64,000 bases of DNA from Dehalococcoidia bacterium (GCA_965249675.1 OZ252250.1:300941-364940), one strand, 5' to 3'. Positions 10,717 to 57,236 are shown, counted from the stretch's first letter. Translations and numbers: made by a program. The notes: generated by a model from the letters alone, not told the origin.

Positions 10717-11631
10717 CTAGCGGAAGGCCGGCGCGACCTCGCTGATGAAGCGATCGGCCGTGGCCGTGCTCCGCTCAAGCCCGGCGCCGCCCGTGCGCAG
10801 CGAGAAGATCGGGACGACCAGCTCATCGACCCCGGCCTCGATGAAGGCTCCCAGCGACTCGGTGATCTGGCCGGCAGGTCCGGCCAGGACGCGCCCGCCG
10901 TAACGCTCCTCTGCCCGCGCCGCCTCTTCGGCATCGTCGGTCACCTGAACGAAGATGTTGGCCGACCGGTGGATCTCGGCGGGGTCCCGACCGAGCGCCT
11001 CGCAGTGCCGCTCCAGGACCCCGATCTTGTGGGCGAGAACGTCGGGCGTCCCCCAGACGTTCCACTCGTCGGCGTACTGGGCGGCGATCCGCAGAGTCAC
11101 CCGCTCGCCGCCCCCGCCGACCAGAAGCGGCGGCCCCGGACGCTGCACGGGCTTCGGCGCGAGGGGCGCGTTGCGCAGCTGGTAGAACCGTCCGTCGAAG
11201 TCCGTCCGCTCATTGGCAAAGAGCGAACGGATCACCTGGATCGCCTCCTCGAGGCGCCTGAGGCGTCCGCCGACCGTGCCGAAGGGGATGCCGTAGGCCT
11301 CGTGCTCGTTCTCCTGCCAGGCCGATCCGATGCCGAGTACCAGGCGGCCGCCGCTGATCAGGTCGACGCCTGCCGCCATCTTGGCGAGCACGGCCGGGTG
11401 CCGGTAGGTGTTGCCCGTGACCATCGTGCCCAGGCGGATCCTCGGCACGGTCGCGGCGAGCGCCGCCAGGTTGGTCCATGCCTCGCCGGTCGGACCGCTG
11501 TTGTCCTGGGCGTTCGGCATGAAGTGGTCGGCCACCCAGAGGCCATCCCAGCCGCTCTCTTCGATGTGGGCGGCGAAGTCCCTCAGGGTCTCCCAGTCAC
11601 CGGGTTGGTTCGGCCAGGCGCTGAACTGCAC
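10717..11631 (-). CDS. LLM-class F420-dependent oxidoreductase (luciferase-like)
   Basis: 304 aa. WVADHF, RIRLGTMVTGNTYRHPAVLAKM, GGRLVLGIGSAW and QRPGPPLLVGGGGE are typical of the Rv1855c-type LLM family. Confidence 0.85.
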   Translation of the reverse strand: MQFSAWPNQPGDWETLRDFAAHIEESGWDGLWVADHFMPNAQDNSGPTGEAWTNLAALAATVPRIRLGTMVTGNTYRHPAVLAKMAAGVDLISGGRLVLGIGSAWQENEHEAYGIPFGTVGGRLRRLEEAIQVIRSLFANERTDFDGRFYQLRNAPLAPKPVQRPGPPLLVGGGGERVTLRIAAQYADEWNVWGTPDVLAHKIGVLERHCEALGRDPAEIHRSANIFVQVTDDAEEAARAEERYGGRVLAGPAGQITESLGAFIEAGVDELVVPIFSLRTGGAGLERSTATADRFISEVAPAFR

Positions 11632-29769: not shown

Positions 29770-29975
29770 CTCCCTCTCGGCGCGAGAAACAGGTGCTCGC
29801 GAGTGAGAGGGTGGGAGAGACGGATCGGGGGACCCGCTTCGCCGTCGCCTGTCCTCGCAGGTTCGACAATCTGACGCGGGCCGGTGTTCTGACTCCTGGT
29901 AGCGCCGATAGCGGCCGACCAGTCACAGTTGCGGGACAGCGCCGGACTCACACCGGCTTCCCCGAACACCGCGTC
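29770..29975 (-). promoter_or_regulatory. Cobalamin (B12) riboswitch with an SD-sequestering expression platform
   Basis: The minus-strand RNA reads GGUGUUCGGGGAAGCCGGUGUGAGUCCGGCGCUGUCCCGCAACUGUGA...CCAGGAGUCAGAACACCGGCC. This matches the conserved GGGAA..GGUG..CC..CCCGC.ACUGU core and the B12 box, and GGUGUUC pairs with GAACACC. The downstream hairpin CCCUCUC..UCGCGAG...CUCGCG..GAGAGGG overlaps the AGGGAG just 5-prime of the start codon. Confidence 0.8.
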
Positions 29976-30091
29976 GAAATCGGGTCGAAGTGTAGCACGG
30001 TGACCGGGCCCCGCTCGGTCGGCGTAGGGCGCCCCGGGGGTTCGGGCGTGGCACGGCGGGCCCAGGATGCGCCAGGCCACCGTGCCGGGCG

Positions 30092-33889: not shown

Positions 33890-34638
33890 GCCCGACCGCG
33901 GGCCCACCGTGCAGTACGGAGGAGCTCCTGATCGTGCTGATGTCGCGAGACATCCGCGATTGGGAGACCTGCGCCTGCGGCGCTCTGTCGATGATCCCGG
34001 CGGCCTCGATGCTCCTCGCCGAGGAGACCCACGCGCCCCAGATCGAGGTGATCATCCTTGGCAGCCGGGACCTCGATCGCAATCTCGGCAAGGACATCCA
34101 CTTCCTCGCCCAGCGCGGGAAGCTCGATCTCTTCTACCACTCGGCCGTGCAATTCGATGCCGAGGGGAACTTCAACCTTCACGTGCTCGGCGATCCCGAC
34201 TCACCGGATCGCCGGCTACCCGGGGGATACGGCTCGGGGCTCCTCTCCTACATGTCGAGGCGGGTCTTCTTCTTCCGCACCGAGCACTCGACGCGCACCT
34301 TTGTGCCGAAGGTCGACTTCATCTCCGGTGCGGGGTTGACCCCTCCTGAGATCAAGCGCGCCTCAGAACCCTTCCGCGTCTACACGACGATGGCGATCAT
34401 GACCTTTGATCGGCAGCGCGCTCGCTACGAGGTGGAGTCGATCCACCAGGGATTCACGGCCGACGACGTGCGCGCCAACACCGGCTTCGATGTGGACATC
34501 CCCGAGGCCTGCCCGGTCACCCCGCCGCCGTCAGAGGCCGAACTTGAGACGCTGCGCACGACGGTGCGCCAGCGCATGATCGACACCGGCACCTACCCGG
34601 AGTGGGCCACGGCGGCGCTCCAGCCGGTGGCCAGCTGA
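33886..34638 (+). CDS. CoA-transferase subunit B (family I beta)
   Basis: 250 aa. Its start overlaps the subunit A stop. HSAVQFDAEGNFNLHVLG (the family's GN.N segment), GGYGSG, and a C-terminal part typical of GctB-like subunits. Confidence 0.85.
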   Translation: MSPTAGPPCSTEELLIVLMSRDIRDWETCACGALSMIPAASMLLAEETHAPQIEVIILGSRDLDRNLGKDIHFLAQRGKLDLFYHSAVQFDAEGNFNLHVLGDPDSPDRRLPGGYGSGLLSYMSRRVFFFRTEHSTRTFVPKVDFISGAGLTPPEIKRASEPFRVYTTMAIMTFDRQRARYEVESIHQGFTADDVRANTGFDVDIPEACPVTPPPSEAELETLRTTVRQRMIDTGTYPEWATAALQPVAS

Positions 34639-47170: not shown

Positions 47171-47181
47171 CAGACACCGTG

Positions 47182-48090
47182 ATGGGGAACCGAGTGCGCG
47201 CGCCGCGATGGTGGTCGGTGAGGAGCGTCGACGACGTGATCGGCCGGCTCCCAGTGATCGACGCTTGAACCCTTGACGTGCAAGCCGTAGACCTCCCGAT
47301 CGTTCTCACGATGGTGCTTCTGAATAGGCCGGAGTATCGCGCCGTTCTCGACGGATTGGTCGAATTCCGTCGCAGTGTCGCCGTCCACCTTGAAGACAAC
47401 GCTCTCGACGCCCCTCTGGAGAATCTCCCTTATCTCTATCAGCGGTGGTGCTTGCTTGAAGTTGTCGACTCCGCGACGCGCGTGGCACGGGAACGAGGCT
47501 TCCGGATCGTCGAGGAGCGCCTGTCCCGCCGGCGGCAGGCGGCGCTGTTTATCGAAGTGCTCCCCGCAGGGCAGCCCCTCCTCAGGTACCGACACGACGA
47601 GTCAGGCACGGAGGCCACGCTTACGCATGAGCGGACATTCGGTCGCACCGGGTCGCCCCGTTCGGTGAGCTTCCAACAGCGGCCCGACATAGTGCTCGAA
47701 GTTCGAGCGCCTGACTCCGCGCCACGGCTCTTCGTGTTCGACCCCAAGTACAAACTCGACAGCGAAGACCGTGATGACGAAGAAGGGTTGACTGGGCGTC
47801 CCAAGAAGTCCGATATCGACAAGTGCACGCGTACCGCGACGCAATACGCGAAGAGGACGGTGAGCGAGTGATTGAGTACGCGGCGATCCTCTATCCGGGC
47901 CCCAGCCGGCACTTCGGTGACGACGTTGCGGCGCTTGAGGCGGTCGCGGGGCGTGAGACCGAACTCCAGGTTGAGCTCGACTCGGTACCTGAGCGGCGCC
48001 TTGAAGACAACTACGCGGTGAGGGCCGCACCCTGCACGATTGCGTCGCCGATCGACTTCGCCTCTACCCAGGGCGATCCAGCGCACGACC
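47182..48090 (+). pseudogene. DUF2357-like PD-(D/E)xK restriction-type nuclease remnant (N-terminally truncated, with an in-frame TGA and a 1-nt deletion)
   Basis: LNRPEYRAVL..., LYQRWCLLEVV and QQRPDIVLEV...RLFVFDPKYKLD...KKSDIDK, then a frame break at 47823/47824 before (M)HAYRDAIRE...EYAAILYPG. In-frame TGA at 47266-47268. The natural 3-prime end is unclear. Confidence 0.55.
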
Positions 48091-48094
48091 GGTC

Positions 48095-48859
48095 TCAGAC
48101 CTTCTGCTGCCACTGCGCCCGCGCGAGCACAAGTCCGTCGACGGCGACGGCCCCTGCCAGCCTGAGCGCCCTTGCGACCTCGAGCATGTCGTGGCCCGTC
48201 GTGAACACATCGTCAATGACCAGGACCCGCTGGGAGACGGCCGCAGGGTCAGGTATCTGGAGGGCGGCGCGAAGCTGTTCACTCGCGATGTCGTGGCGCC
48301 GCTTCCACCCTTTCCCGCTCATTGTGTCGGTCTCCGCAGTCTTCACGATCAGCGGACGATCCCGACGAAAGGGCCAACCGCCCGGATCCTCAATCACGGC
48401 GTGTTGCACGATTCGATCGATCTGGCTCCACGAACGGTGCGCGCCAGGACCCGTGAAGGCGGGCATCGGAATCAGGGCGTCGTAGTCGTGGAACTCGTCT
48501 GCGTTCTCCTCCAGATAGCCGAGAATCACGCGCGCGAGGATGGGTGCCCATACCGTTTTCTCGTCGTACTTATACCGGCGAATGACGCGACGCATGGGGT
48601 CGGAGTCGAGTGCGACTGCGCGAACCCGCCCGTACCAGCGCTCGTCGGGCGTCCAGTTGCAGATTGGGTTGCCGCAGGGGGCATGAGGCTCCGCCAGCGG
48701 GTGGCTACAGAGTGCACAGCGCGCGAGCGGGGGCAGGTGCGTGTATCTGGACGCGCAGGTGAAGCAGATTTCGACCGAGCCCGATCTTCGGTAGGCGCAG
48801 TGCTGGCACTGGCCGAAGCCTGGAGGCTGTGGGCTGAGACTGTCGAACCGCTGTGGCAC
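48095..48859 (-). CDS. ComF-family phosphoribosyltransferase with an N-terminal double zinc ribbon
   Basis: ORF trimmed to GTG 48859, 15 nt after the dprA-like stop. CQHC..CFTC...CALC..CGNPIC Cys pairs. RRVIRRYKYDEK. PRPP loop VLVIDDVFTTGHDM. Confidence 0.8.
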   Translation of the reverse strand: MPQRFDSLSPQPPGFGQCQHCAYRRSGSVEICFTCASRYTHLPPLARCALCSHPLAEPHAPCGNPICNWTPDERWYGRVRAVALDSDPMRRVIRRYKYDEKTVWAPILARVILGYLEENADEFHDYDALIPMPAFTGPGAHRSWSQIDRIVQHAVIEDPGGWPFRRDRPLIVKTAETDTMSGKGWKRRHDIASEQLRAALQIPDPAAVSQRVLVIDDVFTTGHDMLEVARALRLAGAVAVDGLVLARAQWQQKV

Positions 48860-48873
48860 GGCGGGGCGTCTTG

Positions 48874-49824
48874 TCAGTCGCCCAAGCTGAAGGCGAGCTG
48901 CTGACGTCCATCTGTGATCTGCGCAATGCGCTCGGGCGTGCGAAGACGTTCCAGCACGTCGTCGAGGTCGGACACCTCGATGGCCCGCTGCGGGTAGCGG
49001 CGTCGGTAGCCCTGTGCCCAAGCCTGCCTGGTAACGAGCGATCTGAGCAGGAATGCGTACTTGCCATGCTCCAGCGCGAGGCGCGCCTGCATCTTCGCGC
49101 CTGACGTGCTGCCCGCCTCGATCACGACTGTCCCCTGGCTGATGCCGGACATCGTGACGTTCCGCTTCGGGAAGTTGTAGCTCGCTGGCGGGCTATCCGG
49201 CCAGAACTGCGAGACGATGGCACCCGTGGCGGCTATCCGCTCGGCCAGGCCTCGGTTCTCAGGAGGGTAGGTCCGCGTGATCCCGGAGCCGACCACGGCG
49301 ATGGTCCGGCCGCCGGCGTCGAGGGTGGCCGTGTGTGCCGTAGTGTCGATCCCGCGGGCCAGTCCGGAGACCACGGTGACACCAGCCGCGGTGAGCATCG
49401 TCGCCATCCTCTGCGCACGGGAGAGGCCTTCTGCCGACGCCTGGCGCGTACCGACGACGGCTACTGATCGCGCGTCCGATGCGCGCAGCGAGCCACGGAC
49501 GAAGAGGAACGGCGGAAGGTTGAAGACAAGCTCGAGGTTCGCTGGGTACTGCTCGTCGAGCACGCTGATTAGCCGCGCCCCTGCTTGCTCCGCGCGCTCG
49601 ATCTGGTCGTCGACCCACGCAAGACGCTCGTCTTCGGTCTCGCGCGACGAATTGATGAGTCTTCGCGCTTTCGATGCGACATCCGACCGTTCGACGGGTG
49701 TTCCCGCAAGGAGGTGACCGATGCCACCTTCGGCGAGCGCCTCGCGAGCAAGGAGGTGCCAGTCAATGCCCTTGATCGCGCAGAGGGAGAGCAGTTGCCG
49801 GACGTCTCGGGAGTCACTCATCAT
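48874..49824 (-). CDS. DprA/Smf-family (SLOG Rossmann) protein
   Basis: ORF trimmed to ATG 49824 (GGAGGTGG upstream). YPANLELVFNLPPFLFVRGSL, VAVVGTRQAS, VVSGLARGIDTTAH, FPKRNVTMSGISQGTVVIEAGSTSGA. Confidence 0.85.
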   Translation of the reverse strand: MMSDSRDVRQLLSLCAIKGIDWHLLAREALAEGGIGHLLAGTPVERSDVASKARRLINSSRETEDERLAWVDDQIERAEQAGARLISVLDEQYPANLELVFNLPPFLFVRGSLRASDARSVAVVGTRQASAEGLSRAQRMATMLTAAGVTVVSGLARGIDTTAHTATLDAGGRTIAVVGSGITRTYPPENRGLAERIAATGAIVSQFWPDSPPASYNFPKRNVTMSGISQGTVVIEAGSTSGAKMQARLALEHGKYAFLLRSLVTRQAWAQGYRRRYPQRAIEVSDLDDVLERLRTPERIAQITDGRQQLAFSLGD

Positions 49825-49879
49825 GAGTACCCGCCCACCTCCAGAGAACGACCGTTCCAAACTTAGATGCGAACACCTA

Positions 49880-50194
49880 TTAGTTGCTCCACGCGCGACC
49901 CCGAAGCAGTCCTTCGACTTCGGCTGTGAGGGGATGGACTTCTCCGGTGGCGACATCGAGAGCCTTGAGGACGCCAAGGCTGGGCTGATCACCCACTCTC
50001 CAATCAGGTTCGGGAGCCAGTTCGTTGAAGAAGACGTGGCGCCGATCCTCCCAGGTCGGCTCCTTGTCGAGGCCCGGTCCCCACCAACTGTCGCCAGCCT
50101 GGTACAGGTGCGGATACAGGCCATCGCCCTCCTGAGCCTGGACAGCCAGCAGAACGGGTATCGCTGCCAGCGATGCGAGGAGTCCGCGCGTCAT
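49880..50194 (-). CDS. Small hypothetical secreted protein (first gene of the dprA-like/comF-like operon)
   Basis: 104 aa. Signal peptide MTRGLLASLAAIPVLLAVQAQ. Coding-like codon usage. Its stop lies 55 nt upstream of the dprA-like start. No homology recognised. Confidence 0.45.
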   Translation of the reverse strand: MTRGLLASLAAIPVLLAVQAQEGDGLYPHLYQAGDSWWGPGLDKEPTWEDRRHVFFNELAPEPDWRVGDQPSLGVLKALDVATGEVHPLTAEVEGLLRGRAWSN

Positions 50195-50199
50195 GAAGC

Positions 50200-51291
50200 G
50201 AGCATAGCTGCGGCGAAGTCGAGGTTCCAGACCTCGTCTCGCTCCCGGACTTCACGAGCCGGGAGACCCTCTCAATGGGCTCCCTCGTGGTGGACGAGAG
50301 AGGCGCTCAGGTGGTGCGGCGCATGTTCACGCTGCACCCGCAGGGTCACTCGACCGCTTGCTGGTATCAGCGGCGAACGCCGAGGGACCGCGAACGAGAC
50401 TGGGCCGGCCGTTCACTCGCGGAGCTGTCGAGGAGATCCTGCGGAATCGCGTGTACACCGGAGTCTTGATCTGGTCGCCCGGAACCGCGGACGAGGATGT
50501 GGTCGATGGTGCTCACCAAGCGATTGTCGATGCGGAGGTGTTTCGCGACGTGGCAGCGGTACGACGCGAGCGGCGGACCTAGACCGGACCGAGGGGGCGC
50601 AAGGGCACAGTGCGCACCTACCCGCTCACCCGGCGCGCGTCCCGCTACTACTGCGGCGGTTCCCTTTTTCGGCGACACGGGCAGCCGGACGAACAAGCGC
50701 CGGATGCGCCACGCCGCCGGTTCGTGTGTCTATCGCCAGTCCTTTAGCTCAGACCTCCTTGAGCGGCAGGCCCGCGAGTTGGCGGTGGAGCGGCCGAGAC
50801 TGCCACCCGACAGCATCAAGCGCATCGCCATCGCCGCGACGAGAGCACCGGAGGGCAGCCATGCTGTGAAAGTGCAACGGCTGCAGAGCGCACTCGAGAA
50901 GTTGCGACAGCTATACACCTGGGACGACATCGACAAGGCCGAACACCGCAAGCGGCGCGGTGAAATTGAGCGTCAGTTGAAGGAGGTGTCCCCGAACCCA
51001 CCGGTCGAGCTCAGGAAGTTCGAGCGGGGGATGGAGTACCTCTCGCCGCTCGGCCAGACGTGGGATGACGCGCCGCTGGAGGAACGTCGCGAGATCGTCA
51101 ATCTGGTGTTTGAGGAGGTACGGATCGGAGCCAGAGGCATCCAACACGTCGAGCTTCAGGAGCCCGACCGGTCGCTCCTCAGCGCACGTGGTCGGATTGG
51201 TCGGGGAGGCCGGAGTCTCCCCGACAAACTCGACCACCTGTGGAGCCCGTCGGAAGTCACCATCGGGGGCGTTGACCGGGCGGTCGGATAG
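50200..51291 (+). pseudogene. Large serine recombinase, 3-prime fragment only (recombinase domain, zinc ribbon and coiled coil), frameshifted; the catalytic resolvase domain is missing
   Basis: LVVDERGAQVVRRMF..GHST, then a frame break, then LLVSAANAEGPRTRLGRPFTRGAVEEILRNRVYTG...AIVDAEVF. This is followed by a degenerate zinc ribbon (RYYCGGSLF in an alternate frame) and the coiled coil LQSALEKLRQLYTWDDIDKAEHRKRRGEIERQL. Confidence 0.7.
50539..51214 (+). repeat. 676-bp direct repeat, copy 1 (recombinase 3-prime end plus the 17-nt tRNA-Pro core)
   Basis: Matches 56501-57176 at a constant offset of 5962 bp. One mismatch was noticed (A/G within GCAAGGGCAC(A/G)GTG). The match ends exactly after TGGTCGGGGAGGCCGGA. 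Confidence 0.9.
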
Positions 51292-51671
51292 CGCGGGTAC
51301 AGGCTGGCAGACGTGAGAGGTCCGGGGTTCGTTGCATTCTGCACGCCCGGACCGCAATGGCAGGCACAAGTGGTGGTCTCGAGGATCGCAGGTTCGACCC
51401 TGGTGGCCCGACATCGAGCTTTGGTCCTGAGTCGGCTACTCGCGGAACGATCGCGATGAGCGGTCGGTCATGGTGGGTCGCCGGAACGCTGCCTGAAATG
51501 TTCATCAGGATAGACAAGTCCTACGGCGATGACACTTGCGTGTTCCGCGTCTAAATGGCCGCACAATCTGGACATCGGAGCGTCCCATAGTCTAATCACT
51601 GGACCCTCGGCGCTCTTCGGTCTATATTTCCTTGAAGAATTAGACTGGTTGTAGGCAGGGGACATCGTGAG

Positions 51672-52835
51672 ATGGACAGCGAACTGTTCACGAAACCATC
51701 CGGACGGCTGGTTGAAGTCGAGCGTGACCCCCCCTTGCCGACGTACGTCGCCTACGTCCCCGACCCCCTCCCTCCGGAATCCGAAGGTGGAGCGATCGCA
51801 GCCGTGGCTCGGGAGCTGGGAGAGGCCAGCCTTGCGCTCGGCCAGCTGACCGGCATCGGTGAGTTCTTCCCGAACCCCGATCTGCTCGTGCGCTCTTACC
51901 TGCGGCGCGAGGCCGTCGCAAGCTCCCGCATCGAAGGCACGATGGCTTCATTCTCCGACATCGTCTCCTTCGAAGCCGGCATACGTCCTCCGCCCGGGAG
52001 CGACGCGAAAGATGTCCTCAACTACATTACGGCTCTCAATGGCGGCCTCCGGGCTAGCCCGGACGAGGTGTTTTCGCTCGATTTCGTCCGTTCGCTCCAC
52101 AGGCAGCTGATGACGGGGGCGCGCGGTGAAGCGTTCAGCAATCCCGGGGAGTTCCGCTTCATCCAGAACCATGTCGGCATCCTGAACGGGATCGAGAACG
52201 CCACCTACGTACCACCGCCACCCGCGGAGATGCACACGGCCCTCGATCAGCTCCTTGGGTACGTGAATGCGGCGAAGCCGGGAACACCGCCGTTGGTCGA
52301 GGTCGCGTGGATGCACTACCAGTTCGAGGCGGTTCACCCCTTCCTCGACGGCAACGGCCGCGTGGGCCGCCTCCTCATCCCACTTCTCCTAGCCGCGCGC
52401 CACAAGGTCAGCCATCCGCTGCTCTATCTCAGCCCCTACTTCGAGCGACGACGGGTCGACTACTACCGGCTCTTACTCGCGGTCAGTTCGACTTCGGCCT
52501 GGGAGGAGTGGCTTCGTTTCTTCCTCGTCGGAGTGGCCGAGCAGGCGCGAGAGGCCATCTCCGCGGCACGTCAGGTGCTCGCGCTCCGAGAAGATTGGAG
52601 GGAGCAGCTCACGGCCGCTGGCGCCACTCCGTCGGCCCACCGCCTTGCCGAGCTCGTCTGCGAGTACGTGGCGGTGACGCCCAAGCTCGTCGAGCTGCGC
52701 CTCGACGTAGCTCGACAGACCGCGTACAACGCGATCCACGTGCTTGTGGACGTAGGCATCCTGGAGCCGGTGCCGGTAGGCCAGCGAGGGAGCGTCTACA
52801 TCGCCCATCGACTCGTGAGAGTCCTCAGTCCGTAG
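51672..52835 (+). CDS. Fic family protein (AMPylase-type), class II auto-inhibited, with a C-terminal winged helix
   Basis: 387 aa. Active site HPFLDGNGRVGR. The N-terminal inhibitory motif SSRIEG fits (S/T)xxxE(G/N). Appears intact. Confidence 0.9.
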   Translation: MDSELFTKPSGRLVEVERDPPLPTYVAYVPDPLPPESEGGAIAAVARELGEASLALGQLTGIGEFFPNPDLLVRSYLRREAVASSRIEGTMASFSDIVSFEAGIRPPPGSDAKDVLNYITALNGGLRASPDEVFSLDFVRSLHRQLMTGARGEAFSNPGEFRFIQNHVGILNGIENATYVPPPPAEMHTALDQLLGYVNAAKPGTPPLVEVAWMHYQFEAVHPFLDGNGRVGRLLIPLLLAARHKVSHPLLYLSPYFERRRVDYYRLLLAVSSTSAWEEWLRFFLVGVAEQAREAISAARQVLALREDWREQLTAAGATPSAHRLAELVCEYVAVTPKLVELRLDVARQTAYNAIHVLVDVGILEPVPVGQRGSVYIAHRLVRVLSP

Positions 52836-52875
52836 ACCATATGGCGTGACCGAGAGTTCAAGAACTGCTACTCGT

Positions 52876-53201
52876 CTAGAGTGTGGCAAGACCGAGGTTC
52901 ACGAGCCGGAACGCCATCGCTGACTGGCTCACGCCGTAGCGGCGAGCTAGGTTCCCAACAGCTTCGTCACCAGCGGCGTCGATACCCAGCTCGCCAACGT
53001 CGGCAAGCAGCCAGTCCCTCGGCATCAGGAGCTCTGCCGCGAACATGTGCGCCTGGATCTCCTCCCGGTCGCTTCCCGCAGCAGCCTTTTGATCTCGCCG
53101 GAAACACGAAGCGCCTGTCGACAAAGGTCTGCGGCCCATGCAGACAAAAGATGCCCGAGTTCATGCGCGATCGTGAATCGCTGGCGCACGCCGCTCTGTG
53201 C
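52876..53201 (-). pseudogene. ImmA/IrrE-family zinc metallopeptidase remnant (3-prime part; the 5-prime part continues at 55700-55780 across the IS21 insertion), also frameshifted
   Basis: RQRFTIAHELGHLL (HExxH) abuts the IS21 end. The downstream part EEIQAHMFAAELLMP is in another frame. Joining the IS flanks restores ...LPDVNSAQSGVRQRFTIAHELGH. Confidence 0.7.
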
Positions 53202-53266
53202 TGGGAATGACAACCCGTTCTGGCCCCACCTTGATCCTCTGAACTGGCCCCACCCCCGGGATGTGG

Positions 53267-54049
53267 TCAGCTGGTCGGAGCACCTCCCTTCGAGGCGGTG
53301 GTGACCCGCAGGCGATAGGACTCGCTGCCGGTCTCGATGATGTGGGCGCGGAACGTGAGCCGGTCGACGACCGCGGCGGCGAGGCGGGGGTCGGCGAAGG
53401 TGCGGCCCCACTCCGAGAACGGCGCGTTGGAGGCGACTGCCACCGAGGCCCGCTCCTCGCGCTCGGTGAGGACCTGGAAGAGCAGTTCGGCTCCGCGCGG
53501 GTCGAGGTGGACGTAGCCGAACTCGTCGAGGCAGAGCAGGTCGAGCCGGCCGTAGCGGGCGACCAGGCGTGAGAGCGTGCGCTCGTCGGCGGCTTCGGCC
53601 AGTTCGTTCACGAGCTGTGCCGCCGTCGTGTAGCGCACCCGCAGCCCGCGCTGGCAGGCGGCCATGCCGAGCCCGATCAGCAGGTGCGACTTGCCGGTGC
53701 CGCTGTCTCCGAGCAGCACGACCGGCTGGCCCGAGGCGATCCACTCGCCGCGCTCGAGCGTGGCGAGCATGGTCGGGTCGACCGTGGGGGCCGCCGCCAG
53801 GTCGAAGTCGGCGAGGTGCTTGAGCCGGGGGAAACGGGCCTCGTGGATGCGGCGCTCACGGCGGCGCGCATCGCGGTCGTCGAGCTCGGATTGGAGCACC
53901 TCGGCGAGGTAGGCGAGATGGGTGAGCCGGTCGCGCAGCGCGGCCTCGGCGAGCGCGCCGGCCTGCTGACGGACCGTGGGGAGGTGCAGCGCACGGCTGG
54001 TCGCCTCGACCTGAAGCGCCGCCGCCTGCTCGGTCACAGGTGTGCTCAT
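53267..54049 (-). CDS. istB: IS21 helper ATPase IstB
   Basis: 260 aa. Walker A LLGDSGTGKSHL and Walker B LLCLDEFGY. Its start overlaps the istA stop. Confidence 0.9.
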   Translation of the reverse strand: MSTPVTEQAAALQVEATSRALHLPTVRQQAGALAEAALRDRLTHLAYLAEVLQSELDDRDARRRERRIHEARFPRLKHLADFDLAAAPTVDPTMLATLERGEWIASGQPVVLLGDSGTGKSHLLIGLGMAACQRGLRVRYTTAAQLVNELAEAADERTLSRLVARYGRLDLLCLDEFGYVHLDPRGAELLFQVLTEREERASVAVASNAPFSEWGRTFADPRLAAAVVDRLTFRAHIIETGSESYRLRVTTASKGGAPTS

Positions 54050-55575
54050 CGCGTGCTCGCGGCGAGCAGCGCGTCGTAGCCGGCCAGGCTCGGCGCCGGG
54101 CGTTCGAAGCGCCTGAGCGCCGGCCGCTCCACAACGGCGGTCTCGCGGCGGCCGTCGGCGACGCGGCGCGCCTCGATGGCGATCAGCGCCGGGTCCACCG
54201 CGCCCAGCTGCTCCACCGCATCGAGTGCTGCGTGCACCGAGGCGGCGGGGAGGTGGCGGTGCAATAGCAGCACCTCGATGAGCGCCCGCGTCCCGGCGCC
54301 GTCACCGAGCTTGCGGCGGGCACGCTGCCAGAAGCGTTCGTGCGCGGCGGTGAAGCCACCGCCTGAGCGCGCCTGCGCGAGCGCGATCGAGCCGGGCAGC
54401 GCCCCGGGCTTGCGGGACAGCACCTCGAGGAAGTGGTCCAGCACGAGGACCTCGGATCCCTTGTGCGCGCTGCGCTCGTGGCGGGCAACCACCCGGCCCG
54501 CGACGAGGGCGGTCACGGTCCCGCCGCCCAGGCGGACGTCCACCGTGCGGCCCGCGAACGCCGCGGGGACCGAGTAGCGCGAGCCACGCACGGAGATGCG
54601 CGCCTTGCGGTCGGCCTTCGCTTGCAGTGCGACCGTGGGGTCGAAGGGTTCGGCGGGGAGGGGCCGCAGCGCGGGCCGCTCTGCCTCCGCCGTCTGGCCG
54701 ACGGTGGCGAGCCGGCCAGCGATGTGGCGGGCTCCGTCTGCGCGGTCGGCCGCCTCGAGCAGCGCGTTCAGCTCGGCCAGGCTCTCGACGCGCGGGACCG
54801 GCACGAGGTGGCGCCGGCGGAAGCGCCCGACCTCGCCCTCCACGCCCCCCTTCTCGTGCGCGCCCGCGATGCCGGGCTCGCAGAAGAAGCTGTCGAAGCC
54901 GTAGTGCGAGCGCAGTGCGGTGAAGCGGTCGCTCTCGATGCGGTCGCGCCCCAGGAGCACGCGCGTGACGGCCGAGCTCAGATTGTCGTAGCGGATCCGC
55001 CGCGGCACCCCGCCGAGGCGCTCGAGGGCGAGCGTGTGGCCCTCGAGGAACGCCTCCTGGCCCTCGCCCGGGAAGCACACGTGGACCGCCCGCCCCGAGT
55101 GCGAGAGCCGCAGCACGAACATCGACAGCTCGGTCAGCACGCCGTCCAGCCAGACGCTGACCCCGCCGAAGTCGACCTCCGCCTCCTCGCCCGGCGGATG
55201 CAACTGGGGGATCGTCACGACTGAGCGACCGGACTCCAGCTCGCGGCGCACGCGGCCGACGTAGGCGCGCACCGTCGCCTCGGCGACCGTCGCGCCGTAC
55301 TCATCGACGAGGCGCTCCCAGACCCGCCGCGCCGTGTGCCGCTGCTTGCGCGGCGCGCTCAGGTCGGCGACGAGCCACTCCCGGATGATCTCTACGTACG
55401 GACCGAGCTTCGGCGCCGCTCGAGACGCCTGCTTGCGTTGTGGCGGCAGCGCCGACTGCAGCGCCTGCCGTACCGTGCGCCGGTGCACGTGGTGGCGGCG
55501 CGCCAGCTCGCGTATGGGCAGCCCCTCCTCTCGCCATGCCCGTCGGATATCCTCGAACAACTCCACCCTCGACAC
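54046..55575 (-). CDS. istA: IS21 transposase IstA
   Basis: 509 aa. N-terminal HTH (IRELARRHHVHRRTVRQAL) and a DDE integrase core (EVDFG...YDNL...). Confidence 0.9.
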   Translation of the reverse strand: MSRVELFEDIRRAWREEGLPIRELARRHHVHRRTVRQALQSALPPQRKQASRAAPKLGPYVEIIREWLVADLSAPRKQRHTARRVWERLVDEYGATVAEATVRAYVGRVRRELESGRSVVTIPQLHPPGEEAEVDFGGVSVWLDGVLTELSMFVLRLSHSGRAVHVCFPGEGQEAFLEGHTLALERLGGVPRRIRYDNLSSAVTRVLLGRDRIESDRFTALRSHYGFDSFFCEPGIAGAHEKGGVEGEVGRFRRRHLVPVPRVESLAELNALLEAADRADGARHIAGRLATVGQTAEAERPALRPLPAEPFDPTVALQAKADRKARISVRGSRYSVPAAFAGRTVDVRLGGGTVTALVAGRVVARHERSAHKGSEVLVLDHFLEVLSRKPGALPGSIALAQARSGGGFTAAHERFWQRARRKLGDGAGTRALIEVLLLHRHLPAASVHAALDAVEQLGAVDPALIAIEARRVADGRRETAVVERPALRRFERPAPSLAGYDALLAASTR

Positions 55576-55710
55576 ACTCCTCTTCTTTCGCTCGGGGAGG
55601 TCTCAGTTGCCCGAGCGTAGCTGCTGGATGGGTCGGGGGTGGGGCCAGTTCAGAGGATCAAAACGGCCCAGATGGGGCCAAATCAGAGTAGCGTTCCCAC
55701 TGTGCGGAGT

Positions 55711-56498
55711 TCACGTCGGGCAGCGGCGGTGGCGGGCTTGCAGGTCGTCGGACAACTCCACACACACCCGGGCACGCCTACCTTCAAGCAGCTCCGCCAG
55801 GCTCGTCGACGTCATCTGGGCGCCACGGTCTGAGTGCAGCGTCAACTGCTGCGGCGAGATCCCGTTGCGGTCGCAGGCGGTGCCCACCAGCGTCCTGGCA
55901 ACCTCGGTCGACTCCGCCGGATCGACCGCCCAGGCGACGATCTTGCGGCTGAAGATGTCGATCACTACGTAGAGGTAGAACCAGCTGCGGTGGTGAGGGC
56001 CGCGGAGGCGCGAGATGTCCCACGACCAGACCTCGTTCGGGCCGCTCGCCTGCACCTGGGGTGCATGGTGGGTCGTGCGTCGGTGACCGCGACGCCGTTC
56101 TCTGACCAGGCCGCGTTCCTCGAGGATGCGGTACATCTGGCGGATCGAGCAGACGTACGAGCCCTCGTCCAGCAGCTGGTAGTAGACCTGGGCGGGCGCC
56201 TGGTCACGAAAGCGTGGTGAGCACAGCAGCTCGGCGATGTGATCGCGCAGCTGGTCGGGGATGCGTGACGGCTGCGGCTGGTGCTGCTCGCGCGGCTTCG
56301 CCTGTGACGGCCGCCTGGCGGCGGCTGCGGTCGGTCCGCTCTGAGTATCCGAAGACCCGACAGGCGCGGGCACGGCCAACCCGCTGGGCCCATGCGTCCA
56401 TAGCGGCGAGCATCTGCGCCCGCCAGTTGGCGTATGCCTGTGCTGGCCGTTCGGCTCGTGTCGGCGCTACCCGTTCTGGCTGCTCGGTCGTTGCGGCA
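55711..56498 (-). mobile_element. IS3-family element fragment (HTH plus rve transposase, frameshifted and 3-prime truncated)
   Basis: ACRVFGYSERT HTH, then LRDHIAELLCSPRFRDQAPAQVYYQLLDEGSYVCSIRQMYRIL, PNEVWSWDISRL, LYVVIDIFSRKIVAWAV and LHSDRGAQMTS. The family sequence stops after LAELLEG. A possible TG... terminus lies at 56498. Confidence 0.7.
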
Positions 56499-56500
56499 TA

Positions 56501-57176
56501 TGTTTCGCGACGTGGCAGCGGTACGACGCGAGCGGCGGACCTAGACCGGACCGAGGGGGCGCAAGGGCACGGTGCGCACCTACCCGCTCACCCGGCGCGC
56601 GTCCCGCTACTACTGCGGCGGTTCCCTTTTTCGGCGACACGGGCAGCCGGACGAACAAGCGCCGGATGCGCCACGCCGCCGGTTCGTGTGTCTATCGCCA
56701 GTCCTTTAGCTCAGACCTCCTTGAGCGGCAGGCCCGCGAGTTGGCGGTGGAGCGGCCGAGACTGCCACCCGACAGCATCAAGCGCATCGCCATCGCCGCG
56801 ACGAGAGCACCGGAGGGCAGCCATGCTGTGAAAGTGCAACGGCTGCAGAGCGCACTCGAGAAGTTGCGACAGCTATACACCTGGGACGACATCGACAAGG
56901 CCGAACACCGCAAGCGGCGCGGTGAAATTGAGCGTCAGTTGAAGGAGGTGTCCCCGAACCCACCGGTCGAGCTCAGGAAGTTCGAGCGGGGGATGGAGTA
57001 CCTCTCGCCGCTCGGCCAGACGTGGGATGACGCGCCGCTGGAGGAACGTCGCGAGATCGTCAATCTGGTGTTTGAGGAGGTACGGATCGGAGCCAGAGGC
57101 ATCCAACACGTCGAGCTTCAGGAGCCCGACCGGTCGCTCCTCAGCGCACGTGGTCGGATTGGTCGGGGAGGCCGGA
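56501..57176 (+). repeat. 676-bp direct repeat, copy 2 (recombinase 3-prime fragment running into tRNA-Pro)
   Basis: Matches 50539-51214. ORF 56666-57181 repeats the recombinase C-terminus and stops at a TGA inside the tRNA T-loop. The left edge abuts the IS3 fragment. Confidence 0.9.
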
Positions 57177-57236
57177 TTTGAACCGACGACCACCTGTCCC
57201 CCAGACAGGTGCGCTACCAGACTGCGCCACTCCCCG
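57160..57236 (-). tRNA. tRNA-Pro (anticodon GGG), 77 nt with encoded CCA
   Basis: The minus strand reads CGGGGAG TG GCGC AGTCTGGTA GCGC A CCTGT CTGGGGG ACAGG TGGTC GTCGG TTCAAAT CCGGC CTCCCCG A CCA. All four stems pair, with one G-U pair in the T stem. U33 and G37 are present. Confidence 0.85.

What the first reader, a model, noticed from the sequence alone, without database searches (positions are those of the whole stretch)
47212..57236. About 10 kb of composite, decayed island accreted at tRNA-Pro(GGG), apparently two related serine-recombinase elements in tandem
GC content drops visibly immediately after the DUF1801 stop (47170), and the gene content switches to nuclease, recombinase, Fic, ImmA and IS genes until the tRNA at 57160-57236. 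The last 17 nt of the tRNA (plus-strand TGGTCGGGGAGGCCGGA) recur exactly at 51198-51214 and in degenerate form (12/17, TGGTCGGTGAGGAGCGT) at 47212-47228. These copies divide the island into a left unit (nuclease remnant, comF-like, dprA-like, small ORF, recombinase fragment) and a right unit (Fic, ImmA::IS21, IS3 fragment, recombinase fragment). In both units a large-serine-recombinase 3-prime end abuts the core. tRNA 3-prime ends are the classic targets of tyrosine integrases, so serine-recombinase genes reading into a tRNA-derived core are unusual.
Basis: partly seen in the sequence, partly recalled or inferred. Interest (0 to 1): 0.7.

Follow-up and report, generated by a model that had tools for sequence, protein, structure and literature searches.

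The report
Decayed serine-recombinase island at tRNA-Pro
This is the worn-out remains of a mobile element that a large serine recombinase inserted, in two tandem copies, into the end of a proline tRNA gene; the wreck is ordinary, but intact relatives show a small recombinase group that targets tRNA genes.

Summary
The tRNA-Pro(GGG) gene (57160-57236, minus strand) and the exact 17-nt copy at 51198-51214 are real. That copy is only the right end of a 676-bp direct repeat (50539-51214 = 56501-57176, 1 mismatch). The repeat is the 3' part of a large serine recombinase (LSR) pseudogene.

The junction at 51187-51240 is an LSR attP-type site. It is a pseudo-palindrome, 22 of 30 positions per arm, centred on GG 51212-13, and scores highest of all centres in the window. 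This supports two tandem units.

The copy at 47212 (12/17) is at chance level. It lies 62 nt left of the synteny breakpoint at 47290. No empty site and no attL were found.

Intact 503-aa relatives sit at the same tRNA in sister genomes. Others sit at tRNA-Pro(GGG or TGG) and tRNA-Gly(CCC) elsewhere. Each gene's 3' end overlaps the tRNA's 3' end.

The two copies share a +1 frameshift. A window-specific TGA occurs in both copies, which shows gene conversion.

Cargo is SoFic and a Shosta-like pair. An IS21 (53202-55699) inserted recently.

LSR integration at tRNA genes is uncommon but published. Verdict: new member of a known kind, moderate interest.

The parts
47171..47290 (.). Spacer after the DUF1801 gene. 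It is conserved in all relatives and contains the 12/17 core-like site at 47212-47228. The right end (47290) is the left synteny breakpoint of the window/L007 lineage.
   Evidence: BLAST against L005, L018rc and L017rc stops at 47290. The core-like site is at chance level.
47278..47871 (+). PD-(D/E)XK nuclease (PDDEXK_7) remnant. Its 5' end is cut by the 47290 junction.
   Evidence: Pfam PF04411, 1.6e-17. Junction position.
48095..49021 (-). ComF-like phosphoribosyltransferase, a weak ShosT-like match.
   Evidence: Pfam Pribosyltran 0.006. PADLOC ShosT 5e-5 and PsyrT 1.8e-5.
48874..49827 (-). DprA-like protein matching ShosA. With the gene above it forms a Shosta-like defence pair.
   Evidence: Pfam DNA_processg_A 1.9e-60. 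PADLOC ShosA 1.5e-68. Gene called as 316 aa in L007.
49882..50143 (-). N-terminal fragment of an 811-aa gene that is complete in L005/L006.
   Evidence: 93.5% identity to L005 8236-8497, inside L005 gene 7055-9490.
50255..51214 (+). Left LSR pseudogene fragment, roughly codons 184-503 of the 503-aa intact relatives. The catalytic domain is missing. It carries frameshifts, a TGA at 50580-50582 and a +1 C at 50662.
   Evidence: 86% nt identity to L001 10549-11507. tblastn of P0001. Pfam Recombinase 4e-12. Lesions.
50539..51214 (+). Copy 1 of the 676-bp direct repeat.
   Evidence: Base-by-base comparison at offset 5962 shows one mismatch, at 50609.
51187..51240 (.). attP-type junction (P arm - GG - P' arm) between the two units. 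The central dinucleotide is GG at 51212-51213. A GTGGTCG motif lies at positions 17-24 of both arms.
   Evidence: Arms match 22/30 as an inverted repeat, the single best symmetry score among all centres in the window. The junction is conserved in L005, L006 and L007.
51672..52835 (+). Fic-domain protein matching the SoFic defence protein. It is the cargo of the right unit.
   Evidence: Pfam Fic_N and Fic. PADLOC SoFic 8.3e-102.
52876..53201 (-). ImmA/IrrE-type metallopeptidase remnant. It is frameshifted and interrupted on its right by the IS21.
   Evidence: Pfam Peptidase_M78 3.4e-9. HELGH motif in the neighbouring frame.
53202..55699 (-). IS21-family insertion sequence of 2498 bp (istA 54046-55575, istB 53267-54049) with a 6-bp target duplication CTGTGC.
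   Evidence: Absent from L007, which is 99.8% identical. Ends and target duplication. Pfam IstB_IS21 1.1e-61, plus Mu-transpos_C_2 and rve. 28-nt inverted repeats.
55711..56379 (-). IS3-type transposase (rve) fragment. It lies about 120 nt left of the truncation point (56500/56501) of the right LSR copy.
   Evidence: Pfam rve 1.4e-18 and HTH_32.
56501..57181 (+). Right LSR pseudogene fragment, roughly codons 279-503. It is copy 2 of the repeat (to 57176). Its last 7 codons and TGA stop lie inside the tRNA gene.
   Evidence: It ends ...GRIGRGGRI*, as do the intact P0001, P0002 and P0004.
57160..57236 (-). tRNA-Pro(GGG). Its last 16-17 nt are supplied by the element's P arm, so this junction is attR.
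   Evidence: ARAGORN. Rfam. Junction comparison.

Best explanation
The region between the DUF1801 gene and tRNA-Pro(GGG) is the fossil of a mobile element integrated by a large serine recombinase (LSR).

How the element works:
- The LSR's attP overlaps the 3' end of its own gene.
- Its attB is the 3' part (T-stem and acceptor stem) of the tRNA gene.
- The P arm carries a 16-17-nt copy of the tRNA's 3' end. After crossover at a central GG the tRNA is rebuilt, and the recombinase gene ends inside it on the opposite strand (attR, 57148-57200).

How the window came to look as it does:
- In this lineage the element became a tandem pair, E-attP-E-attR. The route could be integration of a circular dimer, attL x attR exchange between sister chromosomes, or homologous recombination with a circular copy.
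- The internal attP (51187-51240) survives.
- Deletions, an IS3, a cassette replacement bringing a PDDEXK remnant plus a Shosta-like pair, and a recent IS21 then removed most of both units.
- What remains is two 3' fragments of the LSR gene, the SoFic gene and an ImmA remnant.
- Gene conversion keeps the two 676-bp LSR fragments nearly identical.
- The fragment next to the tRNA cannot be fully lost, because its last bases are now the tRNA's 3' end.

Shown: the repeat, the attP symmetry, the pseudogene lesions, the gene conversion, the IS21 insertion, and intact relatives at the same and other tRNAs.
Inferred: the crossover position, the route to tandem copies, and the order of decay events.
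For: Repeat and attP:
- 676-bp repeat with one mismatch.
- The junction at 51212/13 is a pseudo-palindrome, 22/30 per arm, the best of about 64,000 centres in the window (mean 8.6, next best 20).
- A GTGGTCG motif lies at positions 17-24 in both attP arms. It lies 6 bp closer to the centre in the tRNA arm. This resembles the 5-bp shift of the zinc-ribbon-domain motif described for serine integrase attP versus attB (PMC3783163).

Intact relatives:
- P0001, P0129, P0002 and P0004 are 503-504 aa with Resolvase and Recombinase domains. They are 55-79% identical to the reconstructed fragment.
- All end ...GRGGRI*. In L001, L003 and L016 the gene's 3' end overlaps tRNA-Pro(GGG).
- L001 and L016 share the window's right flank at 97.8% identity.
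- The element there carries relaxase, coupling-protein-like, TraG-like and primase genes.

Wider clade:
- L009 and L020 sit at tRNA-Pro(TGG) next to pyrD, and L019 sits at tRNA-Gly(CCC).
- About 11 of the 18 50%-identity representatives read have C-terminal tails that read like antisense tRNA.

Age and decay:
- The attP junction and right unit are conserved in L005, L006 and L007.
- The TGA at 50581/56543 is present in both window copies but in neither copy of L007, L005 or L006. win_L differs from win_R at 1 site and from L007_L at 10. Both facts indicate gene conversion.
- The IS21 is absent from L007 and has a 6-bp target duplication.
- L021 and L022 retain only about 130 nt of LSR 3' end next to tRNA-Pro(GGG).
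Against: - No attL (native tRNA 3' end plus P' arm) was found at the left end of the window's island.
- None was found within 21.7 kb of the intact element in L001/L018 or within 10 kb in L020.
- No empty attB was found in any relative.
- Both LSR copies share a +1 frameshift (50662/56624) in all four decayed genomes. If the duplication came after inactivation, the element's own recombinase cannot have made the tandem.
- The SoFic segment in L017/L018 starts 14 nt inside the P' arm, has no LSR fragment beside it, and lies about 16 kb from the tRNA. The history is therefore more tangled than a simple dimer.
- No recombination activity has been shown.
Confidence: 0.7

Rival explanations
1. Sequential accretion of two different elements. 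An older element (811-aa gene ... LSR) was already at the tRNA. A second related element (SoFic, ImmA ... LSR) then recombined its attP with the resident attR/tRNA site, leaving a hybrid P(old)-GG-P'(new) junction.
For: The two units carry different cargo. The same tRNA site holds different elements in sister strains, so repeated arrivals do occur. In L007 the two LSR copies differ at 10 of 676 positions.
Against: Serine integrases are described as recombining only attP with attB; other pairings are blocked (PMC3783163). Both copies share the same +1 frameshift in every genome. Complementary deletions in two copies of one element explain the different cargo equally well.
Confidence: 0.2
2. Plain segmental duplication of tRNA-proximal DNA by slippage, an IS-mediated event or unequal crossing-over, with no att-site recombination. 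On this view the attP-like look of the junction is coincidental.
For: The repeat is long (676 bp) and nearly identical, and it carries already-inactivated gene copies. IS3 and IS21 sequences lie inside the interval.
Against: The repeat ends exactly at a 54-bp pseudo-palindrome with the best symmetry score in the window. The sequence to its right mirrors the LSR-side arm, including the GTGGTCG motif. A random duplication endpoint would not create that.
Confidence: 0.05
3. A classical tRNA island of the tyrosine-integrase type, with three direct repeats of a 17-nt tRNA core as att sites. The serine recombinase fragments would be unrelated passengers.
For: tRNA 3' ends are the usual targets of tyrosine integrases. 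A tyrosine integrase with an HTH_17 protein occurs on a related conjugative backbone in L017.
Against: The window's island has no tyrosine integrase gene. The left 'core' is at chance level. The LSR gene's overlap with the tRNA end is conserved across at least seven loci and three tRNA species.
Confidence: 0.03

Closest known systems
Phage and ICE large serine integrases (A118/LI, Bxb1, phiC31, TP901-1)
   Same: Intact relatives have Resolvase and Recombinase domains in about 500 aa. The attP is a pseudo-palindrome of about 50 bp with a central dinucleotide. A distal arm motif is shifted toward the centre in the host-side half-site, as described for A118 (PMC3783163).
   Different: The target is a tRNA gene's 3' end rather than a protein-coding gene. 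The attP overlaps the 3' end of the recombinase gene itself, so the last codons and the stop change between the integrated form (...GRGGRI*) and the attP form (24 extra codons). The observed motif shift is 6 bp, not 5. No activity data exist.
Serine-integrase elements reported at tRNA genes: Mycobacterium AICEs at tRNA-Leu, phage phiRSM (PMC3429521), and Thermotogota proviruses next to tRNA-Glu/Phe/Pro (bioRxiv 10.1101/2020.11.07.368316)
   Same: A serine recombinase gene lies beside a tRNA gene that appears to serve as the integration site. tRNA-Pro is among the reported targets.
   Different: The host group differs (probably Chloroflexota) and so does the LSR clade. I did not compare sequences with those published recombinases. 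Here an attP junction is preserved in the chromosome, which lets the site be read directly.
SCCmec / SCC composite islands (CcrAB serine recombinases at the 3' end of rlmH); comparison from my own knowledge, not tested here
   Same: LSR-mobilised elements pile up in tandem at the 3' end of a conserved gene. Internal att-type repeats separate the units, and decayed units persist.
   Different: The target differs (rlmH versus tRNA-Pro), as do the recombinase subfamily and the host. Here the internal site is a full attP-type palindrome.
SSV-type (fusellovirus) integrases of archaea; comparison from my own knowledge, not tested here
   Same: The attP lies within the integrase gene and the target is a tRNA gene, so integration alters the integrase reading frame.
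   Different: Those enzymes are tyrosine recombinases and integration splits the gene in two. Here only the last few codons of a serine recombinase are exchanged.

Membership tests
Large serine recombinase (serine integrase) | N-terminal resolvase-type catalytic domain with the serine nucleophile | tested here: not met
   Both window copies lack it. Homology to P0001 starts at about codon 184 in the left copy and about codon 279 in the right. The intact relatives P0001, P0002 and P0004 have PF00239 and the motif Y-x-R-E-S-T-E-R-Q. The window therefore holds pseudogene fragments of family members, not a functional member.
Large serine recombinase (serine integrase) | 'Recombinase' domain (PF07508) followed by a zinc-ribbon and coiled-coil C-terminal region | tested here: met
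   PF07508 at 4e-12 on 50358-50582. The rest aligns over its whole length with 503-aa LSRs at 79% identity. The zinc ribbon and coiled coil were not tested separately.
Large serine recombinase (serine integrase) | Short pseudo-palindromic att site with a central crossover dinucleotide | tested here: met
   51187-51240 has 22/30 symmetric positions around GG 51212-13, the top score in the window.
Large serine recombinase (serine integrase) | Catalyses attP x attB recombination | not testable with these tools
   Requires an in vivo or in vitro assay with P0001/P0129.
tRNA-integrated genomic island | Intact tRNA gene at one end, rebuilt by element sequence, with the integrase gene adjacent | tested here: met
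   The LSR fragment abuts and overlaps the tRNA's 3' end.
tRNA-integrated genomic island | Displaced copy of the tRNA 3' end (attL) at the far end | tested here: not met
   47212-47228 matches only 12/17, 90 such sites occur in the window, and the alignment p is about 0.08. No attL was found in L018rc or L020 either.
tRNA-integrated genomic island | Absent from close relatives, which show an empty site | tested here: inconclusive
   Every relative found has some LSR sequence at the tRNA (L001, L005-7, L016, L021). The content differs greatly between them. No empty site was recovered.
Tandem / composite integrative element array | Internal att site between units that share the same recombinase type | tested here: met
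   The attP-type junction is flanked by an LSR 3' end on the left, and a second LSR 3' end lies at attR.
IS21 family insertion sequence | istA and istB genes, terminal inverted repeats, a target duplication, and presence/absence between strains | tested here: met
   The element is 2498 bp with target duplication CTGTGC and is absent from L007.
Shosta (ShosTA) defence system | Adjacent ShosT (PRTase) and ShosA (DprA-like) genes | tested here: inconclusive
   The ShosA match is strong (1.5e-68). The ShosT match is weak (5e-5, 21 bits) and covers only the PRTase part.
SoFic defence protein | Full-length match to the SoFic profile, with Fic_N and Fic domains | tested here: met
   PADLOC SoFic 8.3e-102 over residues 24-385. 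Pfam domains. Defence function not tested.

The most novel reading that the evidence does not exclude
A distinct LSR clade, mostly in Chloroflexota-like genomes, has placed its attP inside the 3' end of its own gene and targets the 3' end of tRNA genes (Pro-GGG, Pro-TGG, Gly-CCC). Recombination would then swap the enzyme's C-terminal tail: 503 aa when integrated and about 527 aa from the excised circle. The tail swap could act as a built-in state sensor or directionality control. The internal P-GG-P' junction could also record a non-canonical attP x attR accretion reaction. That would explain why no attL carrying the native tRNA end is seen beside the intact elements.
Probability: 0.12. Interest if true: 0.65.

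Novelty: new member of a known kind. Interest (0 to 1): 0.4.

Why it matters
The island in the window is a dead relic and matters little by itself. Its value is that it preserves a readable attP next to attR. Together with intact relatives (P0001, P0129, P0002, P0004, P0141, P0143), this defines candidate recombinase and att-site pairs whose target is a highly conserved tRNA 3' end. Such pairs could be useful as integration tools in poorly tractable phyla.

The region also gives three further results:
- The tRNA-Pro site is a hot spot where defence genes (SoFic, Shosta-like) and conjugative elements are exchanged between near-identical strains.
- A recombinase scar next to a tRNA is hard to lose once it supplies the tRNA's 3' end.
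- Gene conversion between the two decayed copies can be seen directly.

Tried and rejected
Searches for an empty site:
- Exact look-ups of the flanking F420H2 quinone reductase and DUF1801 proteins gave only the same lineage or nothing.
- The nearest homologues of the reductase (P0007, P0009; 79-81% identity) lie in non-syntenic contexts and are probably paralogues.

Searches for attL:
- I scanned L001, L018rc, L017rc and L020 for the native tRNA end and for P'-like arms. Nothing scored above background.
- A 12-nt match in L009 (493-504) lies inside a subtilase gene and I dismissed it.

Collection scans:
- The genome-contig scan with the LSR alignment returned one locus, L009.
- The metagenome scan for the attP/attL junction found nothing.
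- The scan for attR found only the relic L021/L022.
- The viral-contig scan found no relatives.

Ideas rejected:
- 47212 as an att site.
- The 17-mer as an independent core.
- The stop codon and frameshift as independent decay in two elements. They are shared between the copies.
- ARAGORN's 'tRNA-Asp(atc)' at 34522 as a real tRNA. Rfam does not support it.

Not found: the 2020 NAR paper on integrative-element mapping, which I wanted for statistics on serine integrases and tRNA targets, was not in the library.

Full report
**1. Checking the observation**

tRNA-Pro(GGG) lies at 57160-57236 on the minus strand (ARAGORN; Rfam tRNA at 62.9 bits). Its last 17 nt, read on the plus strand as TGGTCGGGGAGGCCGGA, recur exactly at 51198-51214.

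This 17-mer is not an isolated core. A base-by-base comparison at an offset of 5962 shows it is the right end of a 676-bp direct repeat, 50539-51214 = 56501-57176. The only mismatch is at 50609.

The window holds 90 sites with at least 12/17 matches. The best local alignment of the tRNA to 47171-47290 is reached by 7.6% of random 120-nt windows.

The GC drop is real but small. GC is 0.693 to the left of the island and 0.63-0.66 in the island segments. The IS21 is 0.729.

**2. What the repeat is**

The repeat is the 3' part of a large serine recombinase (LSR) gene. I reconstructed the reading frame and searched with it. The search found intact proteins of 503-504 aa with Resolvase and Recombinase domains: P0001 (79% identity), P0002 (65%) and P0004 (55%).

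- The left copy (50255-51214) keeps roughly codons 184-503.
- The right copy (56501-57181) keeps roughly codons 279-503.
- Both copies lack the catalytic domain, so both are pseudogenes.

The intact proteins all end ...GRIGRGGRI*, exactly like the tRNA-proximal copy. In L001 and L003 the gene's last 22 nt overlap the 3' end of a tRNA-Pro(GGG) gene on the opposite strand.

**3. The junction at 51212/13 is an attP-type site**

Both repeat copies carry the same left arm, ...ACGTGGTCGGATTGGTCGGGGAGGCC. At 57176 the sequence continues into the tRNA body, which makes this junction attR. At 51214 it continues into GTCTCCCCGACAAACTCGACCACCTG. That sequence is the inverted image of the left arm.

- 22 of 30 positions per arm are symmetric around GG 51212-13.
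- This is the single highest symmetry score among all centres in the 64-kb window. The mean is 8.6 and the next best is 20.
- A GTGGTCG motif occupies positions 17-24 of both arms. It recurs in the tRNA-side arm 6 bp closer to the centre.

Serine integrase attP sites are pseudo-palindromes with 25-bp half-sites. Their distal (zinc-ribbon-domain) motif is shifted 5 bp toward the centre in attB (PMC3783163). The anatomy here fits that description.

I infer, but have not shown, that crossover occurs at the GG. On that reading, the 16-17 nt of tRNA sequence in the P arm exist to rebuild the tRNA after integration. An attP retained inside a chromosome, flanked on the left by a recombinase 3' end, is what a tandem array E-attP-E-attR looks like.

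**4. Comparison with relatives**

| Locus | Relation to window | What it shows |
|---|---|---|
| L007/L008 | 99.8% identical | Same structure without 53202-55699; that segment is an IS21 of 2498 bp with a 6-bp target duplication CTGTGC |
| L005/L006 | about 98% identical | Same attP junction, SoFic unit and right LSR fragment; between window positions 47290 and 49882 they hold 6.9 kb of different DNA, including the complete 811-aa gene of which the window keeps only 262 nt |
| L001/L016/L018 | right flank 97.8% identical | Intact LSR (P0001/P0129) with relaxase, coupling-protein-like, TraG-like, primase and rve genes next to the same tRNA |
| L017/L018 | as above | The SoFic segment (window 51228-52950, 99.6%) lies about 16 kb from the tRNA, starts 14 nt inside the P' arm and has no LSR fragment beside it |

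L005 and L018 share a further 164 nt beyond window position 47290. That position is therefore the junction of the window/L007-specific cassette, which holds the PDDEXK remnant and the ComF/DprA-like pair. It is not an att site. No relative showed an empty site.

**5. Age of the duplication, and gene conversion**

I compared the 676-bp copies across genomes.

| Comparison | Differences |
|---|---|
| Window, left vs right copy | 1 |
| L007, left vs right copy | 10 |
| L005, left vs right copy | 7 |
| L006, left vs right copy | 9 |
| Window left vs L007 left | 10 |
| Window left vs L007 right | 4 |

- The TGA at 50581/56543 replaces a Trp codon found in all other sequences. It is present in both window copies and in neither copy of L007, L005 or L006. 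A recent mutation has therefore been copied between the two repeats by gene conversion.
- A +1 C at 50662/56624 is present in both copies of all four decayed genomes. It is absent from the intact genes.
- Either the duplication happened after the gene was already broken, or an early conversion spread the lesion. I could not decide between these.

**6. Breadth of the association**

A 46%-identical LSR remnant in a Dehalococcoidia MAG (L009) reads into tRNA-Pro(TGG) next to pyrD. An intact relative, P0141, does the same at the syntenic site in L020. P0143 reads into tRNA-Gly(CCC) in L019.

A full HMMER scan of 1.84 billion representatives found only 52 proteins at E <= 1e-30. About 11 of the 18 whose sequences I read have C-terminal tails that read like antisense tRNA.

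L021 and L022 keep only about 130 nt of LSR 3' end beside tRNA-Pro(GGG). This fits the idea that the scar closest to the tRNA is protected because it now encodes the tRNA's 3' end.

**7. Mechanism and rivals**

My best explanation (confidence 0.7) is a fossil tandem array of an LSR element at tRNA-Pro. It has been eroded by deletions, an IS3, a cassette replacement and an IS21, and its two LSR fragments are homogenised by gene conversion.

The tandem could arise in three ways that need no unusual chemistry:
- integration of a circular dimer;
- attL x attR exchange between sister chromosomes;
- homologous recombination with a circular copy.

It needs an attP x attR reaction that serine integrases are described as avoiding. 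A plain segmental duplication (0.05) does not explain the palindrome. A tyrosine-integrase island with 17-nt cores (0.03) is contradicted by the data.

**8. What remains unexplained**

No attL carrying the native tRNA end was found for any intact element. I scanned 21.7 kb in L018rc and 10 kb in L020. No empty attB was recovered.

**9. Comparison with what is known, and novelty**

LSRs normally target protein-coding or intergenic sites, and tRNA targets are the hallmark of tyrosine integrases. Published exceptions exist:
- a cluster of serine-integrase AICEs at tRNA-Leu in Mycobacterium, and phage phiRSM (PMC3429521);

The finding is therefore a new member of a known kind. Two details stand out. 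The attP overlaps the recombinase gene's own 3' end, so the last codons differ between the integrated and the attP forms. A chromosomal fossil also preserves the attP.

**10. Other observations**

- The ComF/DprA-like pair matches the Shosta defence system. The ShosA match is strong and the ShosT match is weak.
- The Fic gene matches SoFic. The cargo is therefore anti-phage defence.
- The host is probably a member of the Chloroflexota. This rests only on the source names of homologues.

Noticed in passing
window 48095-50124 (minus strand): The 'comF-like' and 'dprA-like' genes form a pair matching the Shosta anti-phage system in PADLOC (ShosA 1.5e-68; ShosT weak at 5e-5). With the PDDEXK remnant, the pair sits in a cassette (47291-49881) that replaces 6.9 kb of other genes in L005/L006 between identical flanks.
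   Followed up: partly
window 51672-52835 (plus strand): The Fic protein is a full-length match to the SoFic defence protein (8.3e-102). The same gene, at 99.6% identity, lies in a different neighbourhood in L017/L018.
   Followed up: partly
window 53202-55699: An IS21-family element of 2498 bp with a 6-bp target duplication CTGTGC. It is absent from the 99.8%-identical L007, so the insertion is very recent.
   Followed up: yes
window 50581 and 56543; 50662 and 56624: A window-specific TGA is present in both LSR copies, which indicates gene conversion. A +1 C frameshift is shared by both copies in four genomes.
   Followed up: yes
L017 331-9107, compared with L018 265-9107: The same conjugation backbone (rve, TraG P-loop, primase, TraG-D-like) is joined to a tyrosine integrase plus HTH_17 in one contig. 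In another it is joined to a relaxase plus LSR. This looks like a swap of the integration module on a shared backbone.
   Followed up: no
L019 1060-2697 / tRNA 2613-2688; L020 10001-11590 / tRNA 11533-11610; L009 tRNA 11456-11532: Relatives of the LSR read into tRNA-Gly(CCC) and tRNA-Pro(TGG). Gene callers have translated the antisense tRNA into C-terminal tails such as SGWADSNRRPHGPKPRALP.
   Followed up: partly
L021 3648-3855 and L022: Only about 130 nt of LSR 3' end survive beside tRNA-Pro(GGG) in two JGI metagenome contigs. This is a minimal scar of the same element family.
   Followed up: partly
window 29861-29988 (minus strand): Cobalamin riboswitch (Rfam RF00174, 47.9 bits).
   Followed up: no
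window 34522-34617 (minus strand): ARAGORN calls a 96-nt 'tRNA-Asp' with anticodon atc. Rfam finds no tRNA there, so it is probably a false positive.
   Followed up: partly
L005 7055-9490 (minus strand); window 49882-50143: An 811-aa protein with no Pfam hit on record and no PADLOC match sits directly upstream of the left LSR fragment in L005/L006. The window keeps only its first ~87 codons. It may be cargo of the ancestral element.
   Followed up: no
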